Shown: positions 9,424 through 41,640, counted from the stretch's first letter. The stretch: 42,116 bases of DNA from Candidatus Micrarchaeota archaeon (GCA_023248035.1 JAHFFJ010000004.1:12048-54163); one strand, 5' to 3'. Program-made: numbers and translations. The notes: generated by a model not told the origin, from the sequence alone.

Positions 9424-9544
9424 CCACTTTACAATAAAGTGAAATTTTCTTAAATCCGACCATAAAAAAAGCCATTTTTTCTGTTTTATCTACATAGAAA
9501 TAGTCAATCTAACATTTCAAAATGAAAAATAGCCCCGGGCAGAT

Positions 9545-9760
9545 TCTCGAGCTTTTGGAAAAAGCTCGACCAAAACGGTCTGCTAATTTTTGCTTTTTTC
9601 TGTACGCTCGCCTTATCGGCTCGCACAGAACTGATAACAAAAATGGTTTACTAAAGTTCAGTAATTTTCCGATAAGGAAAATTCAACTGAACAAAAACCA
9701 AAAACCCGAAAAGGGTTTTCAACAGAAAGTTTTGATCAAAACTTTTTCTAAAAGTTTTGT
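9545..9760 (-). other. tRNA-Gln intron 2, inside the T-loop (~216 nt), full-length modular element
   Basis: It separates GGCAGTTCGA from ATCTGCC; the junction is ambiguous within GAA. It contains H1 (9738-9758), H2 (about 9700-9720), H3 (9656-9692), M (9602-9626), ccaaaacggtctgctaat (9570-9587) and H4 (9547-9569). Confidence 0.7.
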
Positions 9761-9803
9761 TCGAACTGCCGTCAAGAGGTCCAGAACCTCCTATCCTTGA
9801 CCA

Positions 9804-9915
9804 AAGTCTGCACTTTTTTAGGAAAAAAGTGCACAAAAAACTGGTTTGTTATCAGTCAAAAACCCGAAGGGGGTTTCAACACCAATTTTTGATCCAACTT
9901 TTTTTGAAAAAGTTG
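9804..9915 (-). other. tRNA-Gln intron 1, inside the D-loop (~112 nt)
   Basis: It separates GTCTAGCC from TGGTCAAGGAT. It contains hairpins ccaac..gttgg (9894-9916) and gcac..gtgc (9810-9832) and an H2 copy (about 9858-9878). Confidence 0.7.
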
Positions 9916-9955
9916 GGCTAGACGACGGGGCTATAACTGAAATTTGTTTGATAAG

Positions 9956-9965: not shown

Positions 9966-10009
9966 CTACTTATGCGAGCTATTCACTCTGGCAGAATGCT
10001 TAGATGACT

Positions 10010-10135
10010 GTTCAGTAATTTTCCGATAAGGAAAATTCAACTGAACAAAACCAAAAAACGAAACTTATATATAGTGGGAAACTTCTAATAAATGTGTACA
10101 GTTAGTTTTTTGGTTCTTTTTTCCTAAAAAAGAAC
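10010..10135 (-). repeat. Solo (non-tRNA) fragment of the intron element
   Basis: Positions 10010-10046 are a 37/37 identical copy of hairpin H3 (9656-9692; reverse complement at 18665-18701), followed by caaaaccaaaaaa. Positions 10112-10135 are an H-type hairpin, ggttcttttttcctaaaaaagaac. No tRNA exon-like sequence flanks them. Confidence 0.6.
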
Positions 10136-10189
10136 GGTGAATATGATGGTGAATAAGGAGGTTAAGGAAAGGGATTTCCTTCATAGGCA

Positions 10190-18558: not shown

Positions 18559-18830
18559 GGGGAAATGAGCTAACCTGGTATGCTGTCAGCTTTGGGTCTC
18601 CACCTTTTAGGAAAAGGTGGAGCCAAAACGTGCTGTTTCAAAACCCTTTCGGGTTTTTGGTTTTGTTCAGTTGAATTTTCCTTATCGGAAAATTACTGAA
18701 CTTCACAAACCATTTTTGTAAGTGCGAGCCGATAGGCGAGCGAACGAAACAAAAATTAGCAAGACTGTTTTGGGTACCTTTTAAGGTATCAAAAGAGCTG
18801 GTTGTCTGAGTTCAAATCTCAGTTTCCCCA
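18559..18830 (+). tRNA. tRNA-Pro(UGG) with a 199-nt intron at 37/38
   Basis: Exon 1 is 18559-18596 (GGGGAAATGAGCTAACCTGGTATGCTGTCAGCTTTGGG). Exon 2 is 18796-18830 (AGCTGGTTGTCTGAGTTCAAATCTCAGTTTCCCCA). Features are acceptor GGGGAAA/TTTCCCC, anticodon arm TCAGC-TTTGGGA-GCTGG, T arm CTGAG-TTCAAAT-CTCAG and discriminator A. Confidence 0.88.
18597..18795 (+). other. tRNA-Pro canonical-position intron (199 nt), full-length modular element
   Basis: It contains H1 ctccaccttttaggaaaaggtggag (18598-18622), H2 aaaaccctttcgggtttt, H3 (18665-18701), M (18722-18745), attagcaagactgttttggg (18755-18774) and H4 gtaccttttaaggtat. CAAA (18790-18793) pairs with loop nt 32-35 UUUG, leaving an AG|A bulge at the 3' splice site. 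Confidence 0.8.
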
Positions 18831-18975
18831 TAAAAGGAACCAAGGTTCCTTTTTATCCTCCTTTGAAAAGAACCAATGGTTCTTTTTGAATCTCATGAAA
18901 GAACCTACGGTTCTTTCTATCTCCCTCTTTTTTGAATCAAGGTTTCTTTCTAACTTCCTTTTCTTTGAGTATTTT
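18831..18975. repeat. Tandem array (~4 units, ~33-nt period) of palindromic hairpins
   Basis: The units are aaaaggaaccaaggttcctttt, gaaaagaaccaatggttcttttt, gaaagaacctacggttctttc and a degenerate fourth, separated by the pyrimidine spacers atcctcc, gaatctc, atctccc and aacttcc. The first hairpin plus T5 sits directly 3' of tRNA-Pro (terminator-like). Confidence 0.75.
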
Positions 18976-20247: not shown

Positions 20248-20955
20248 ATGGCAGCAACATCAAGGCCACCTTCAGTTGCTCTACCGCCAGAACAAAGACC
20301 ATCTCCATTTGCTCTGGATCCAGAACAAAGACCAAAACCCAAAGGTACTTATAGTTCTAGATCACCTCAAGTTGAATCTCCTCAATCTATACGCTCTGTT
20401 ACTCCTGCTAATCGATCTGGTGCAATATCCAGAAAGCCTCGATCAGACCAAGAAGAAAAATTATCTCCAGAAGAAAAAACAAGGCAATTGACCCTTATAG
20501 CAAGACTAAAAACAAATGTAGCCGGAATCACATCCGATGATTTTTCAGAATTTATTAGAGCTAGTACTGATTGCGAAGTTGCTTTGGCTTTCACTTCTCT
20601 TTTGGCAGTGTATCTTGATCGGCACGAACCGGAACATATATTTCTTGTTTCTATCTTAGTTGCCTTTTCTGGTTCAGAAGAACTTAGGAGTCATGGCATT
20701 CTTTGTCTAAAAAACATAGCGAAAAATGGCCATAATATTTGTGAATTCTTAGACTCTACTGGCAATTCCAACTCCACAGGCCCTACAAATCCACTTAGAC
20801 TTATTATGGAAGATATAAATCTATCAGGTATTTCCAATATAATTGATATACTTGTGTTGCATGCAAATCTTGGTCATACTCAAAGAGCCCAAGTTTTAGA
20901 TGTTATCGAAGGGAAACCCGATTTTGTTAGACTAAAAACTGCGTTAACTATATAG
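20248..20955 (+). CDS. Hypothetical protein with a Pro/Ser-rich repeat-containing N-terminus
   Basis: 235-aa ORF with the internal DNA/peptide duplication PPEQRPSPFALDPEQRPKPKG. Its stop abuts the 3' end of the convergent tRNA-Thr. Confidence 0.5.
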   Translation: MAATSRPPSVALPPEQRPSPFALDPEQRPKPKGTYSSRSPQVESPQSIRSVTPANRSGAISRKPRSDQEEKLSPEEKTRQLTLIARLKTNVAGITSDDFSEFIRASTDCEVALAFTSLLAVYLDRHEPEHIFLVSILVAFSGSEELRSHGILCLKNIAKNGHNICEFLDSTGNSNSTGPTNPLRLIMEDINLSGISNIIDILVLHANLGHTQRAQVLDVIEGKPDFVRLKTALTI

Positions 20956-20989
20956 CCTCGGGAGGGATTTGAACCCCCGGCCTCCTCCT

Positions 20990-21107
20990 TGCCCGCTTTT
21001 GGTAAAAGCGGGACCAAAACAGTCTTGCTAATTTTCGCTGCGCGAAAATGTAAAACCCGAAAGGGTTTTCAACAGAAAGTTTTGATCCAACTTTTCCTAA
21101 AAGTTGG
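20990..21107 (-). other. tRNA-Thr intron at 37/38 (118 nt), element variant lacking H3
   Basis: It contains H1 ccaac..gttgg (21087-21107), caacagaaagttttgatc, H2 (about 21051-21070), ccaaaacagtcttgctaat (21014-21032) and H4 cccgc..gcggg (20992-21012). Intron nt -6..-3 CGGG pair with loop 32-35 CUCG, leaving a CA|A bulge. Confidence 0.75.
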
Positions 21108-21128
21108 TACGAGAGAGGCGCTCTACCA

Positions 21129-21208
21129 TTTTTCGCGCTTTTTTAGTAAAAAAGCGCACCAAAAAACTAACAATAAGTTTTTGATGCACCTTTTTTCTAA
21201 AAAGGTGC
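21129..21208 (-). other. tRNA-Thr D-loop intron (80 nt), minimal element (H1 - closing stem - H4)
   Basis: It separates GCTCAGT from TGGTAGAGC. The hairpins are gcacc..ggtgc (21186-21208) and gcgc..gcgc (21135-21157), with AUCAAAAAC...GUUUUUUGGU between them. Confidence 0.7.
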
Positions 21209-21245
21209 ACTGAGCTACCGAGGCTTTAATTCAAATTAAATAGTC

Positions 21246-21255: not shown

Positions 21256-21496
21256 GACCTGAGCATTTTCATGAAAGTGTACCCCCGGAGAAAAAATTCA
21301 AATGAACAGGGAAAAAAGGATGATGTTTACTGAATTTTTGACTTGGATAACTGTGGGTGTCAATACGGATGAAGTTTGATGAAACTTTACCATAAGTTTA
21401 TAGGAGGAAAGTTTCGTTTGATGAAACTTTAACTGGAGTCTGTACGAAGTAAAGTTTCAAATGCGCCCGCCGGGATTCGAACCCGGGTCATTAGCT

Positions 21497-21543
21497 CTCA
21501 TCTTTACCCCTAGTTTTGGGCCGCCTTTTCCTAAAAGGCGGAA
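21497..21543 (-). other. tRNA-Gly anticodon-loop intron (~47 nt)
   Basis: It lies between CTTCCA and AGCTAA. It contains the H-type hairpin ccgccttttcctaaaaggcgg (21521-21541) followed by CCCAAAAC. I could not draw a clean 4-bp central helix for a canonical BHB here. Confidence 0.6.
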
Positions 21544-21564
21544 TGGAAGGCTAAGATCCTACCG

Positions 21565-21678
21565 TTTTCCAAGCTTTTAGGTGCGAGCACACCCTGTTAG
21601 GGCGTGTCGCGGTTTCATCAAAACCGATTCGTTATTTTTAACTAATCAGTTTTTGTGAAACTTTTTCCTAAAAAGTTT
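21565..21678 (-). other. tRNA-Gly D-loop intron (~114 nt)
   Basis: It contains hairpin aaac..gttt (21658-21677), CACAAAAAC...GGUUUUGAUG, and a long GC-rich hairpin gtgcgagcacaccctgttagggcgtgtcgc (about 21581-21610) at the M-module position. Confidence 0.6.
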
Positions 21679-21717
21679 GCTAGACTACAGGCGCTTTTTT
21701 CTTTTGTTGTTAAGTTG

Positions 21718-22885: not shown

Positions 22886-22900
22886 CGCCGAGGGCAGGAT

Positions 22901-23006
22901 CCCCAACTTTTAGGGAAAGTTGGATCAAAACAGTCTTGCTAGTTTTAAAAACCCGGAAGGGTTTTTCAACAAACTGTTTTTGTAAAACTTTTTTCCTAAA
23001 AAGTTT
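22901..23006 (-). other. tRNA-Ser T-loop intron (~106 nt), element variant lacking H3/M
   Basis: It contains H1 aaaac..gtttt (about 22984-23007), caacaaactgtttttgt, H2 aaaaacccggaagggttttt (about 22947-22968), tcaaaacagtcttgctagt (22924-22943) and H4 ccaac..gttgg (22903-22923). Confidence 0.7.
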
Positions 23007-23035
23007 TTGAACCTGCAATCCACGAGGGATCGGCT

Positions 23036-23072
23036 CTCTCGTAAAATTTGTTCCGTTTTTCCAACAGATCCG
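23036..23072 (-). other. tRNA-Ser canonical 37/38 intron (37 nt)
   Basis: Loop nt 32-35 CUCG (23078-23075) pair perfectly with intron nt -6..-3 CGAG (23041-23038). The 3' bulge is AG|A. Confidence 0.8.
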
Positions 23073-23096
23073 TTCGAGACCGACGCACTACCGGAA

Positions 23097-23187
23097 TGCA
23101 CTGCTGCCTCCAGTTTCCCGTTTTGTTTCGTTCGCTCTCCTTATCGGTTCGCACGAAACTGAAAACTCGAGACTGAAAACGCAATTA
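23097..23187 (-). other. tRNA-Ser D-arm intron (~91 nt)
   Basis: The junction is ambiguous within a duplicated GCA. It contains hairpin CGCA-TAAT-TGCG, the direct repeat GTTTTCAGT x2, the M module (23129-23154, RNA GTGCGAACCGATAAGGAGAGCGAACG) and AAACAAAA as in the Pro intron. Confidence 0.6.
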
Positions 23188-23200
23188 TGCGACCTCGGCA

Positions 23201-26810: not shown

Positions 26811-27326
26811 ATGGGAATCAGACCAGGTCGAGCAATACGAGATGCAGATAAAGTTGCATGGACCAGATATTCAAGAAGTAAACCACGTAAATCATTCATA
26901 AAATCAATGCCACACGCAGATCTTCACCAATTCAGGATGGGAGTTCTAAAGAATGATTATGATTGCATTTTGAGTCTCAGGAGCAACGAGGCCACTATAT
27001 TAAGAGATAATGCGATCGAGAGTGCACGTCAAAGTTCAAACAAGCACCTAGAGAAAATGACTGCTGGTGCATACTACTTCACTGTTAGGGTTTACCCTCA
27101 TCACATAATAAGGGAAAATAAGATGATTGCAGGTGCTGGTGCAGATCGTCTTCAAAAAGGTATGCGACGTGCATTTGGAAGACCTACCGATCGTGCTGCA
27201 AGACTGGGTGTTGGTACCAAATTGTTTACTGTTCACTCCTATAAGGCCAATATTGAGCACATAAAAAAGGCATTTGGGCGTGCTACGAGGAAACTTTCCG
27301 GTTCTTATAGTATAGTAGTTGAATAG
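26811..27326 (+). CDS. rpl10e: 50S ribosomal protein L10e (uL16)
   Basis: 171-aa ORF (RPGRAIRD...YSRSK....HQFRMG...AGADRLQKGMRRAFG), the archaeal L10e pattern. Confidence 0.9.
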   Translation: MGIRPGRAIRDADKVAWTRYSRSKPRKSFIKSMPHADLHQFRMGVLKNDYDCILSLRSNEATILRDNAIESARQSSNKHLEKMTAGAYYFTVRVYPHHIIRENKMIAGAGADRLQKGMRRAFGRPTDRAARLGVGTKLFTVHSYKANIEHIKKAFGRATRKLSGSYSIVVE

Positions 27327-27372
27327 TAATTGAATAATTGTAATTGAATATGAATAATAGTAATTGAATAAT
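27325..27372 (+). repeat. Three direct copies of GTAATTGAATA (17-nt period)
   Basis: agtaattgaataat occurs at 27325-27338 and 27359-27372, and tgtaattgaatat at 27339-27351. The first copy overlaps the rpl10e stop codon (TAG 27324-27326) and the rest lie immediately downstream. Confidence 0.7.
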
Positions 27373-29454: not shown

Positions 29455-30105
29455 TCTGCCTGCATCGCAGGCTGGTGAATCGGCGACATACTTATTTTTT
29501 CACTGTAAAAATTACGTCGGTAGCCGGCGCGCCGCCCGAAGGGCGGCACAGGTCTTTCATGAGAAGAGGCTACCGGACGTGAGCAAATGGTTAGTGGAAC
29601 TTTTGTAAATAAAAAGGAATCTGGCAGATACAACTACCAACATATCTATTTTGTTTCAAAGAAAAGGAAGGCAGTTTTCAGAAAACAAAAAACAATTGAT
29701 GCATGCAGGGCAGCTTTCTATGAAGCTGCCGGGCAATTTGGCTTCACAATAAGGGAATTGGGATTCGGAGAAGATTTTGCACATGTCCACATGATTGTTG
29801 ATATTCCATCCAAATTTTCCGTGCAGCAAACTCTTCAAATATTCAAAAGCCACAGTGCCTCAAGAATTTTTGAGAAAGTTCCAAATTTTCTGAAACTATA
29901 TCCTAACAGGGAATTTTGGAGTGGCTGGAGATACAATGGCAGCATAGGTCCAATGACTGAGGCAGTTGTCAAAAAATATATTCAAAAGCAGGATATAATC
30001 CAGAAAAGAATCTCAGATTTCAACTGAAGCGAGCGCCGCTGATACGGCGAGCCTTGCTCGCCGAGAAGGCGCGAGCAGTGGGGTCATAGGGGCGAAGCCC
30101 CTATT
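29455..30105 (+). mobile_element. IS200/IS605-family element (tnpA only); ends approximate
   Basis: tnpA is flanked by GC-rich hairpins in an AT-rich background. On the left are gcctgc-atc-gcaggc (29458-29472) and cggtagcc...ggctaccg enclosing gccgccc-gaa-gggcggc (29518-29575). On the right are ggcgag-ccttg-ctcgcc (30046-30062) and atagggg-cgaag-cccctat (30086-30104). No tnpB is present. Confidence 0.6.
29587..30027 (+). CDS. tnpA: IS200/IS605-family Y1 (HUH) transposase TnpA
   Basis: 146-aa ORF with HUH motif FAHVHMIV, SKFSVQQTLQIFKSHSASRIF and the C-terminal catalytic Tyr context VVKKYIQKQ. It is colinear with IS200 TnpA. Confidence 0.85.
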   Translation: MVSGTFVNKKESGRYNYQHIYFVSKKRKAVFRKQKTIDACRAAFYEAAGQFGFTIRELGFGEDFAHVHMIVDIPSKFSVQQTLQIFKSHSASRIFEKVPNFLKLYPNREFWSGWRYNGSIGPMTEAVVKKYIQKQDIIQKRISDFN

Positions 30106-41376: not shown

Positions 41377-41640
41377 TAAAAGGAACCAATGGTTCCTTTT
41401 TATCCTCCTTTTTAAGTGATCATGGTTCTTTTTGAATCTCCTTTGAAAAGGACCAAGGTCCTTTTCTAATCTCCTTTTCTTTGAATGGTTCTGTTCCAAT
41501 CTCCTTTTTATTTGAAATGAAAGAAACCAAGGTTTCTTTTTAACTTCCTTTTGAAAGGAAACTACGTTTCCTTTCTAACCTTCCTCCATTAGAACGGTTC
41601 TTTGCAACTTCCTTTTTCTTTCAATTCCTCCAGATGTTTA
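41377..41640. repeat. Tandem array (~7 units) of palindromic hairpins, sister of 18831-18975
   Basis: The units include aaaaggaaccaatggttcctttt, gaaaaggaccaaggtccttttc, gaaagaaaccaaggtttcttttt and gaaaggaaactacgtttcctttc, plus degenerate ones. The spacers are atcctcc, aatctcc, taatctcc and aacttcc. The first ~32 nt are near-identical to the start of the 18831 array. Confidence 0.75.

What the first reader, a model, noticed from the sequence alone, without database searches (positions are those of the whole stretch)
18591..18796. Splice sites are bracketed by covarying A/U-clamp hairpins, and 3' sites fit h-B-H at all three testable 37/38 introns
For the Pro, Thr and Ser 37/38 introns, anticodon-loop nt 32-35 pair with intron nt -6..-3 (UUUG/CAAA, CUCG/CGGG, CUCG/CGAG). 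This leaves the expected 3-nt bulge (NN|A38) next to the anticodon stem. At the 5' side I find no continuous outer helix. In the element-bearing introns (Pro, Thr) the intron instead starts with hairpin H1 and ends with hairpin H4. The short 37-nt Ser intron has no comparable terminal hairpins. At least 15 such hairpins have the form X-CUUUU(U)-4 nt-AAAAG-X', where the outer stem X differs between copies but stays complementary. The observed pairs are ccaac/gttgg, gcacc/ggtgc, gcgc/gcgc, cccgc/gcggg, ctccacc/ggtggag, tcgagc/gctcga, ccgcc/ggcgg and gcac/gtgc. My inference is that the central helix, H1, the AUCAAAAC/GUUUUGGU closing helix and H4 form a four-way junction. H1 stacking on the central helix could then mimic the missing outer helix of a bulge-helix-bulge substrate.
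Basis: inference. Interest (0 to 1): 0.75.

Follow-up and report, generated by a model that had tools for sequence, protein, structure and literature searches.

The report
Palindrome-ended repeat introns in archaeal tRNAs
The flagged stretch is a 199-base intron in a proline tRNA gene of a tiny archaeon (Micrarchaeota), and its end hairpins are the inverted terminal modules of a repeat family that has spread through this lineage's tRNA genes and is probably removed by the normal protein-based tRNA splicing system.

Summary
Window 18559-18830 is tRNA-Pro(UGG) with a 199-nt intron at 37/38. Four more tRNA genes in the window (Gln, Thr, Gly, Ser) carry nine further introns in the D-loop, at 37/38 and in the T-loop.

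There are 13 perfect clamp hairpins X-C-U4-6-N3-A4-6-G-X' (0.39 expected by chance) and two degenerate ones. All lie in or beside these tRNA genes. The outer stems covary strongly.

The 4-bp central helix and 3-nt bulges of an archaeal bulge-helix-bulge (BHB) site are present in the exact register at 7 of 10 window introns.

It is only part of the story:
- The hairpins are strict DNA palindromes. They have 0 G·U in 98 pairs, against 17 in 70 for central helices.
- The 3' hairpin is an inverted copy of the 5' one.
- The same 30-nt module sits in opposite orientations at one intron site in two genomes.
- Copies also lie in tRNA 5' leaders and in one spacer.
- Orthologous tRNA-Pro genes have no intron or an unrelated one.
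- In most introns the strand that must pair with the exon lies inside the 3' hairpin, so that hairpin and the central helix exclude each other.

Best reading: relaxed BHB introns built from a lineage-specific, mobile-looking palindromic repeat family. This is a new variant of a known kind.

The parts
18559..18596 (+). tRNA-Pro(UGG) exon 1 (positions 1-37). U32-G35 (18591-18594) is the exon strand of the central helix. G36 and G37 are in the 5' bulge.
   Evidence: This exon is identical in 14 orthologues.
18597..18795 (+). 199-nt intron at 37/38.
18598..18622 (+). H1: clamp hairpin CUCCACC-UUUU-AGG-AAAA-GGUGGAG. It starts at intron +2.
18623..18629 (+). Closing helix, 5' strand (CCAAAAC).
18640..18657 (+). 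Conserved core hairpin AAAACCC-UUUC-GGGUUUU. It is shared by Thr37, GlnT, SerT, GlnD and the introns of relatives.
18665..18701 (+). Long bulged hairpin module. Copies also lie in GlnT (about 9650-9690) and in the spacer (about 10008-10052).
18726..18745 (+). Module GUGCGAGCCGAUAGGCGAGC (coordinates approximate). It is also in GlnT and SerD, and is present inverted in the L101 Thr37 intron.
18767..18773 (+). Closing helix, 3' strand (GUUUUGG).
18774..18789 (+). H4: degenerate 3' hairpin GUACC-UUUUAA-GGUAU. It ends at intron -7.
18790..18795 (+). Intron strand of the central helix (CAAA, -6..-3), followed by the bulge bases AG.
18796..18830 (+). tRNA-Pro exon 2 (positions 38-73).
20954..21224 (-). 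tRNA-Thr(CGU). Its D-loop intron is 21129-21209 (H1, closing hairpin, H4; 81 nt). Its 37/38 intron is 20990-21107 (H1 ... H4).
21462..21694 (-). tRNA-Gly(UCC). Its D-loop intron is 21566-21678 (H1 only). Its 37/38 intron is 21497-21543 (H1 plus CCCAAAAC only).
22886..23199 (-). tRNA-Ser(CGA). Its T-loop intron is 22900-23005 (H1 ... degenerate H4). Its 37-nt 37/38 intron is 23036-23072 and its D-loop intron is 23096-23184; neither has a clamp hairpin.
9530..9932 (-). tRNA-Gln(CUG). Its T-loop (59/60) intron is 9544-9759, with a core 83% identical to the Pro intron core. Its D-loop intron is about 9805-9916; the 3' boundary is uncertain by 2-3 nt.
10008..10135 (.). Partial element outside any tRNA. 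It comprises the long hairpin, CCAAAAAAC..GUUUUUUGG, and clamp hairpin 10113-10135. It lies between tRNA-Gln and an AbrB-like ORF.

Best explanation
The region is the intron of tRNA-Pro(UGG) in a Micrarchaeota (DPANN) genome. It is one of at least ten introns in the five tRNA genes of the window.

Splicing (inferred from anatomy). The introns are ordinary protein-spliced archaeal introns of the relaxed BHB type:
- Exon bases -6..-3 before the 5' site pair with intron bases -6..-3 before the 3' site. This forms a 4-bp central helix.
- Both splice sites fall after the second base of a 3-nt bulge.
- The anticodon stem or T stem supplies the exon-side outer helix.
Cleavage would be by the host splicing endonuclease, which is expected to be of a broad-specificity type.

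What is unusual is the make-up of the introns. They belong to a lineage-specific modular repeat family.
- The terminal module is a perfect palindrome, X-C-U4-6-(RGG loop)-A4-6-G-X', followed by YCAAAAC.
- The 3' end carries the same module inverted: GUUUUGR, then the hairpin with a pyrimidine loop.
- Each full intron is therefore bounded by terminal inverted repeats. Variable internal modules can themselves be inverted.
- The family has colonised D-loop, anticodon-loop and T-loop sites and 5' leaders of tRNA genes, and it is shared among related genomes.

Why X varies:
- There are several module subfamilies.
- At the 3' end, the outer 3' arm doubles as the exon-pairing strand, so it must match each host exon. 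The 5' arm follows it and becomes an exon mimic.
- Complementarity is kept as strict Watson-Crick pairing. This points to maintenance at the DNA level (palindrome correction or recent templated origin) and not only to RNA-level selection.

In the pre-tRNA, H1 abuts the 5' bulge and the clamp of H4 ends at -7. The hairpins can therefore stand in for the missing intron-side outer helix. That is a by-product or secondary use (inferred).
For: tRNA genes and introns:
- Identified.
- The spliced products are called as canonical tRNAs.

Central helix in register:
- 4/4 pairs in Pro37, Thr37, Ser37, GlnT, SerT, SerD and GlyD, where the background chance of 4/4 is 0.02-0.10 per intron.
- Also 4/4 in L082 ThrD, L099 Thr37, L101 GlnD and L082 Gly37 at the given boundaries. 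L082 and L101 Thr37 reach 4/4 after a one-base slide that leaves the product unchanged.

Lineage and enzyme:
- The best matches for Nop5 and for the 377-aa neighbouring protein are Micrarchaeota MAGs.
- The epsilon2 EndA of ARMAN-2 and Mancarchaeum cleaves strict and hBH motifs. [quoted passage not shown]

Repeat family:
- The Pro37 and GlnT cores are 83% identical, yet their terminal X stems are unrelated.
- Modules are shared by Thr37, SerT and GlnD, and by L082, L099, L100 and L101.

Inverted termini:
- 15 of 15 5' hairpins have purine-rich loops. 14 of 14 3', leader or spacer hairpins have pyrimidine-rich loops (p = 1e-8).

DNA-level behaviour:
- 0 G·U in 98 outer-stem pairs, against 17 in 70 central-helix pairs (p = 1e-7).
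- The window Gly37 5' module is the reverse complement of the L100 Gly37 3' end (29/30), while the Gly exons are 79% identical.
- The same module sits just before G1 of tRNA-Pro in L089.
- An internal module is inverted in L101.

Gain and loss:
- Of 15 tRNA-Pro orthologues with identical exon 1, 10 have no intron, 4 share an unrelated 81-133 nt intron family, and only the window has the hairpin intron.
- The Thr D-loop intron is present in the window and L082 and absent in L084 and L099.

tRNA exclusivity:
- All clamp hairpins in about 200 kb of hairpin-bearing genomes lie in or next to tRNA genes.
Against: - No transposase or other mobility gene is linked to the family. The one IS200-like Y1 transposase in the window has different, GC-rich end hairpins.
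- No target-site duplication is seen.
- The near-exclusive tRNA location is not what a randomly inserting DNA element would give.
- The opposite orientations at the Gly37 site could come from differential loss of one end of a two-ended ancestor and not from inversion.
- Very high module identity between genomes could reflect selection and not transfer.
- No RNA data show that the introns are spliced at the inferred sites.
- D-loop boundaries are ambiguous for the window's ThrD (central helix 2/4) and GlnD (1-3/4).
- The endonuclease gene of this genome was not seen in the 40 ORFs scanned.
Confidence: 0.6

Rival explanations
1. Dedicated RNA scaffold. H1 and H4 evolved, and are needed, to form a four-way junction with the central helix and the closing helix. 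H1 stacks on the central helix and replaces the missing outer helix, so that the endonuclease can cut.
For: - H1 starts at -2 to +3 in all 14 introns where the scan called a 5' clamp hairpin.
- The Pro fold with the central helix enforced is a linker-free four-way junction only 4.8 kcal/mol above the MFE.
- D-loop introns lack an exon-side outer helix, so H1 is the only helix flanking a bulge there.
- Outer stems covary.
Against: - The exon-pairing strand lies inside H4 in Thr37, GlnT, SerT, L099, L101 and others. Full H4 and the central helix therefore exclude each other.
- Ser37, SerD, L082 Gly37 and the orthologous Pro introns use the same central helix without hairpins.
- Single-ended introns exist with the module at either end (window Gly37 and L100 Gly37).
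- Copies lie in leaders and in a spacer.
- There are no G·U pairs.
Confidence: 0.25
2. Rod conformer. The conserved clamp sequences exist so that H1 and H4 pair with each other (CUUUU-RGG-AAAAG with CUUUU-CCY-AAAAG). This gives the ordinary continuous intron-side outer helix directly next to the central helix. The local hairpins are only the alternative fold of an inverted repeat.
For: - The MFE of the Thr pre-tRNA pairs H1 with H4.
- With the central helix enforced, Thr37, GlnT and SerT all fold as rods within 1-5 kcal/mol of the hairpin fold.
- The AAAAG of H4 then sits at -11..-7, adjacent to the exon-pairing strand.
- The H1 and H4 loops are fully complementary in L082, L084 and SerT.
- This model explains why the clamp sequence, and not only its pairing, is invariant.
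Against: - The rod leaves X unpaired, so the 5' bulge becomes 6-10 nt and not 3.
- X:X' complementarity (98 of 104 cells) has no role in a rod.
- Loops within one intron are complementary in only 3 of 10 cases (by inspection).
- Single-ended introns cannot form a rod.
Confidence: 0.2
3. The hairpins are protein-binding or stabilising signals for a functional intron-derived RNA. One example would be a stable or circular intron RNA built around the conserved AAAACCC-loop-GGGUUUU core, by analogy with C/D-box guides in tRNA-Trp introns.
For: - The core hairpin and the AAAUUAGCAAG segment are conserved across genomes with 40-60% GC.
- The invariant C-U4/A4-G clamp suggests sequence-specific recognition.
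Against: - No Rfam family reaches its gathering score. The only hits are weak and look like chance.
- No C/D or H/ACA boxes are seen.
- Minimal introns (ThrD, Gly37) lack the core.
- Modules occur in both orientations.
Confidence: 0.1
4. Chance low-complexity A/T palindromes, or a self-splicing (group I) tRNA intron.
For: - The genome is AT-rich (40% GC).
- The intron ends in G, and group I introns are known in tRNA anticodon loops.
Against: - 14 hits observed (13 true clamps) against 0.39 expected, with strong covariation.
- There is no group I hit even at E<=10.
- The exon-intron pairing follows the BHB register at several tRNA positions.
Confidence: 0.01

Closest known systems
Relaxed (hBH / HBh') bulge-helix-bulge tRNA introns of ARMAN-2 'Candidatus Micrarchaeum acidiphilum', cut by the epsilon2 splicing endonuclease (Fujishima et al. 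2011, PMC3239211; PMC5829648)
   Same: - Same phylum.
- Many tRNA genes are disrupted at 37/38, at 59/60 and at other sites.
- A 4-bp central helix with 3-nt bulges is present.
- One outer helix is missing.
   Different: - The ARMAN-2 introns used as splicing substrates in that paper are 13 and 25 nt.
- The introns here are 47-216 nt, modular and related to one another.
- They carry invariant-clamp palindromic hairpins at their ends.
- The endonuclease type of this genome was not seen.
[quoted passage not shown] 2010, as summarised in PMC4090602)
   Same: [quoted passage not shown] Gain is inferred to occur at the DNA level, with the BHB requirement limiting where introns survive.
   Different: - Different phylum (DPANN, not Thermoproteota).
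- The summary read here mentions no terminal inverted palindromic modules, exon-mimic hairpins, leader copies or orientation flips for that case.
MITEs and REP/REPIN elements (for example REPINs, PMC3116915)
   Same: Short non-coding repeats with palindromic units arranged as inverted doublets. They have many copies, fall into subfamilies, and form hairpin or rod structures when transcribed.
   Different: - REPINs and MITEs are scattered in intergenic DNA. REPINs are tied to a RAYT (Y1) gene, and MITEs usually have target-site duplications.
- Here the copies are almost exclusively inside or beside tRNA genes.
- No duplication and no linked transposase were found.
Canonical hBHBh' introns of Euryarchaeota (for example the tRNA-Trp intron)
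   Same: Position 37/38. Anticodon-loop bases 32-35 pair with intron -6..-3, and the 3' bulge lies next to the anticodon stem.
   Different: The canonical form has a continuous intron-intron outer helix after the 5' bulge. Here that helix is replaced by two separate hairpins.

Membership tests
Archaeal protein-spliced (BHB) tRNA intron | The insert lies in a tRNA gene, and its removal gives a canonical cloverleaf tRNA. | tested here: met
   All five spliced sequences are called as tRNAs (Pro, Thr, Gly, Gln, Ser) by ARAGORN without the intron option.
Archaeal protein-spliced (BHB) tRNA intron | A 4-bp central helix between exon -6..-3 and intron -6..-3, with both splice sites after the second base of a 3-nt bulge. 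| tested here: met
   4/4 pairs in 7 of 10 window introns, including Pro (UUUG/CAAA). Background chance is 0.02-0.10 per intron.
Archaeal protein-spliced (BHB) tRNA intron | Outer helices on both sides (strict hBHBh'). | tested here: not met
   The exon-side helix is present (anticodon stem or T stem). There is no continuous intron-side helix. H1 and H4 flank the site instead. The site is therefore the relaxed hBH/HBh' type.
Archaeal protein-spliced (BHB) tRNA intron | Cleavage by the EndA splicing endonuclease and ligation by RtcB. | not testable with these tools
   No EndA gene was found among the 40 window ORFs scanned. The enzyme type is inferred from the phylum (PMC3239211, PMC5829648).
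Group I self-splicing intron | The conserved catalytic core (P3-P9), detectable with Rfam RF00028. | tested here: not met
   No hit at the gathering score or at E<=10.
MITE / non-autonomous DNA transposon | Terminal inverted repeats and multiple related copies. | tested here: met
   The 5' and 3' modules are inverted copies of each other (loop polarity 15/15 against 14/14). There are 10 window introns plus copies in 7 related loci.
MITE / non-autonomous DNA transposon | Target-site duplication and a cognate transposase. | tested here: not met
   No direct repeats flank the introns (inspection). The only transposase in the window (Y1, 29587-30027) has unrelated GC-rich end hairpins.
REP/REPIN-RAYT system | Palindromic units dispersed in intergenic DNA, and a single-copy RAYT flanked by the same units. 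| tested here: not met
   The hairpins are confined to tRNA genes and their immediate flanks. The Y1 gene is not flanked by clamp hairpins.
Transposed tRNA introns (Thermoproteales type) | Highly similar introns at different positions of non-homologous tRNA genes. | tested here: met
   The Pro37 and GlnT cores are 83% identical. Modules are shared among Thr37, SerT and GlnD.

The most novel reading that the evidence does not exclude
A tRNA-gene-specific mobile intron family that carries its own splice-site scaffolding. Its terminal palindromes supply the helices next to both bulges. The 3' palindrome is rewritten at each new site so that one arm pairs with the host exon and the other arm mimics that exon. 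This would give a hairpin-to-BHB conformational switch. It would also be the first concrete mechanistic handle on how archaeal tRNA introns transpose.
Probability: 0.25. Interest if true: 0.85.

Novelty: new variant of a known kind. Interest (0 to 1): 0.62.

Why it matters
Archaeal tRNA introns are known to multiply and move between tRNA genes, but the vehicle and the mechanism are unknown.

This family has recognisable termini: an invariant clamp palindrome plus CAAAAC, in inverted copies. It also shows:
- subfamilies shared between genomes;
- orientation flips;
- copies in 5' leaders;
- clear presence/absence differences at identical sites in orthologous tRNA genes.

That makes intron mobility traceable by comparative genomics. 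The roles of the termini can be tested with a recombinant endonuclease.

The 3' hairpin competes with the exon for the strand that forms the central helix. This suggests either a folding switch in the substrate or a DNA-level process that keeps palindromes perfect. Either would be new for this intron class.

On the practical side, standard tRNA finders and Rfam miss every tRNA gene in this window. tRNA complements of such genomes are therefore being under-called.

Tried and rejected
- Default ARAGORN and Rfam (gathering score and E<=10) found no tRNA, no group I intron and no other family. A weak CRISPR-DR21 hit at 18635-18670 (E=2.5) was treated as chance.
- The first protein look-up failed because the ORF start was wrong.
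- The parent 322-kb contig could not be read, so no genome-wide census was possible.
- The IS200-like Y1 transposase in the window was examined as a possible mobiliser. Its end hairpins are GC-rich and unrelated.
- Target-site duplication: the similarity between the 5' arm of H4 and the exon does not extend beyond the 4 bases that both must pair with. It is therefore not a duplication.
- A kissing-loop or loop-loop pairing idea: loops within the same intron are complementary in only 3 of 10 cases.
- Two scans of viral contigs for the module gave nothing for the CCGCC subfamily. The general pattern gave five chance hits and one unclear copy (L103).
- An alternative register for the window Thr D-loop intron (GCUC/GCGC, 3/4) would give an 11-nt D-loop. 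It was judged unlikely, because the orthologues have AGUGGCA.
- Literature searches found no description of these hairpins.

Full report
WHAT IS THERE

The window is an archaeal contig with 39.8% GC. It encodes Nop5, archaeal-type PEP carboxylase, AlaRS and HisRS. The closest relatives of its Nop5 and of the 377-aa protein next to the finding are Candidatus Micrarchaeota MAGs.

Default ARAGORN and Rfam report no RNA gene at all. With introns allowed, ARAGORN calls tRNA-Pro(UGG) at 18559-18830 with a 199-nt intron.

Reading the other spacers showed four more split tRNA genes, all on the minus strand:
- Gln(CUG), 9530-9932, with D-loop and T-loop introns.
- Thr(CGU), 20954-21224, with D-loop and 37/38 introns.
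- Gly(UCC), 21462-21694, with D-loop and 37/38 introns.
- Ser(CGA), 22886-23199, with D-loop, 37/38 and T-loop introns.

After in-silico splicing, all five are called as ordinary tRNAs. Every tRNA gene found in the window is interrupted, with ten introns in total.

CHECK OF THE OBSERVATION

- U32-G35 (18591-18594) pair with intron -6..-3 (18790-18793), leaving bulges GG|U and AG|A.
- H1 is 18598-18622.
- The closing helix is CCAAAAC with GUUUUGG.
- The 3' hairpin is 18774-18789, although it is a degenerate copy.

The Thr and Ser pairings are also correct.

The same register rule extends beyond 37/38. It gives 4/4 pairs in both T-loop introns and in the Ser and Gly D-loop introns. In all, 7 of 10 window introns score 4/4, against a per-intron background of 0.02-0.10.

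Hairpins of the form X-T4-7-N2-5-A4-7-X' number 14 in the window (13 true clamps), against 0.39 in shuffles. They are essentially absent from about 1.2 Mb of other archaeal loci. On 28 hairpins from the window and its relatives:
- the clamp C-U4 / A4-G is invariant;
- the four outer pairs show 51 double changes and no single-sided change;
- the covariation score is 0.536 against 0.097, with 0 of 500 shuffles reaching it.

RELATED SEQUENCES CHANGE THE PICTURE

Syntenic loci from related Micrarchaeota (GC 54-60%) were fetched. The tRNA-Pro 5' exon was also scanned against metagenome contigs.

1. Fifteen tRNA-Pro genes share an identical exon 1. Ten of them have no intron. Four share an unrelated 81-133 nt intron family with an ordinary continuous outer helix. 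Only the window carries the hairpin intron.
2. Orthologous tRNA-Thr genes in L082, L084, L099, L100 and L101 carry H1/H4-type introns at 37/38, with different outer stems. The differences include compensatory changes between orthologues, for example UAAGC/GCUUA against UAAAC/GUUUA. The Thr D-loop intron is present in some of these genes and absent in others.
3. The 30-nt 5' module of the window's Gly37 intron (UCCGCCUUUUAGGAAAAGGCGGCCCAAAAC) is the reverse complement of the 3' end of the L100 Gly37 intron, matching at 29 of 30 positions. The Gly exons are only 79% identical. The same module ends one or two bases before G1 of tRNA-Pro in L089, and a related module does so in L090. These copies are in a 5' leader, not an intron.
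4. An internal module (GUGCGAGCCGAUAGGCGAGC) is inverted in the L101 Thr37 intron.
5. A partial element lies in the spacer at 10008-10135.
6. Within the window, the Pro37 and GlnT cores are 83% identical, but their terminal outer stems are unrelated.

THREE FEATURES OF THE HAIRPINS

1. Polarity. All 15 hairpins at 5' ends have purine-rich loops (mostly AGG or GGG). All 14 at 3' ends, in leaders or in the spacer have pyrimidine-rich loops (CCU, CCC and the like; p = 1e-8). The 3' module is therefore the 5' module inverted, which makes them terminal inverted repeats.
2. Strict Watson-Crick pairing. There are 0 G·U in 98 outer-stem pairs. The central helices have 17 G·U in 70 pairs (p = 1e-7). 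RNA helices under selection normally tolerate G·U. Perfect palindromes point to DNA-level maintenance or a recent templated origin.
3. Overlap with the splice-site helix. In Thr37, GlnT, SerT and in the L099, L101 and L082 introns, H4 ends at -3 or -4. The exon-pairing strand (-6..-3) is then the outer 3' arm of H4, and the 5' arm of H4 is a Watson-Crick copy of the exon strand. Full H4 and the central helix are mutually exclusive. Only the invariant clamp, which ends exactly at -7, can coexist with the central helix. This explains much of the variation in X at 3' ends, because that arm has to match each host exon.

FOLDING

- The Pro pre-tRNA folds far better than shuffles (z = -6.2).
- For Thr37, GlnT and SerT, enforcing the central helix makes the model pair the H1 clamp with the H4 clamp. 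This forms a rod, within 1-5 kcal/mol of the local-hairpin fold.
- Both conformers are therefore plausible. The conserved X:X' pairing favours local hairpins. The invariant clamp sequence also permits the rod.

INTERPRETATION

Shown by the analysis:
- These are tRNA genes whose inserts obey the BHB register.
- The inserts belong to one modular repeat family with inverted palindromic termini.
- The family is lineage-restricted, tied to tRNA genes, and polymorphic among orthologues.

Inferred:
- Excision is by a broad-specificity EndA. The epsilon2 type is known in Micrarchaeota (PMC3239211, PMC5829648), and no EndA gene lies in the window.
- The family is or was mobile at the DNA level.
- H1 and the H4 clamp can substitute for the missing intron-side outer helix.

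It is not the reason the hairpins exist.

The mobility mechanism is unknown. No target-site duplication or linked transposase was found. The IS200-like gene at 29587-30027 has different end hairpins. The near-exclusive tRNA location argues for targeting or strong filtering.

COMPARISON WITH KNOWN SYSTEMS

The closest known cases are:
- the relaxed hBH introns of ARMAN-2 (PMC3239211);
- the transposed introns of Thermoproteales (Fujishima 2010, via PMC4090602);
- by form only, MITE and REPIN elements (PMC3116915).

The library searched holds no description of clamp-palindrome termini, exon-mimic hairpins or orientation-flipped modules in tRNA introns. I rate this as a new variant of a known kind, with interest 0.62.

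Noticed in passing
window 18833-18960 and 41378-41600: A second repeat family. It consists of tandem arrays (period about 33 nt) of terminator-like hairpins AAAAG-GAACC-N3-GGUUC-CUUUUU with an AUCCUCC spacer. One array follows tRNA-Pro and another follows a KaiC-like ORF. The motif is the circular permutation of the clamp hairpin (AAAAG-Z..Z'-CUUUU against X-CUUUU..AAAAG-X').
   Followed up: partly
window 29587-30027 (+), flanks 29531-29547 and 30045-30104: An IS200-like Y1 transposase ORF (Pfam Y1_Tnp, E=2.5e-20) flanked by GC-rich hairpins. These are not of the clamp type, so no link to the intron family was found.
   Followed up: partly
window 10008-10135: A partial copy of the intron element (long hairpin, CCAAAAAAC..GUUUUUUGG, clamp hairpin) in the spacer between tRNA-Gln and a small AbrB-like ORF that starts near 10147.
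   Followed up: partly
L089 2996-3016 and L090 2313-2333: A closing helix plus a 3'-type clamp hairpin sits in the 5' leader and ends 1-2 nt before G1 of an intron-less tRNA-Pro. How this leader is removed (RNase P or EndA) is unclear.
   Followed up: partly
window 21373-21428; L085, L087, L096 and L098, about 50 nt upstream of tRNA-Pro: A palindromic motif GAAGUUU(U)GAUGAAACUUU recurs upstream of tRNA genes in several relatives and twice between tRNA-Gly and tRNA-Thr in the window. It may be a promoter-associated protein-binding site.
   Followed up: no
L101 12950-13270 (-), Thr37 intron: The module GCUCGCCUAUCGGCUCGCAC is the reverse complement (35/39) of a module in the window's Pro37, GlnT and SerD introns. 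Internal modules of the family therefore occur in both orientations.
   Followed up: yes
window 27312-27370: An AT-rich tandem repeat (unit about 11 nt, ATAGTAATTGA, about 5 copies) downstream of the ribosomal protein L10e/L16 gene.
   Followed up: no
L103 3935-3957 (IMG/VR contig of 360 kb): One clamp hairpin (CUCAAC-U5-CA-A4-GUUGAG) followed by AUCAAAAC, in a large contig classed as viral. The context is not recognisably a tRNA.
   Followed up: partly
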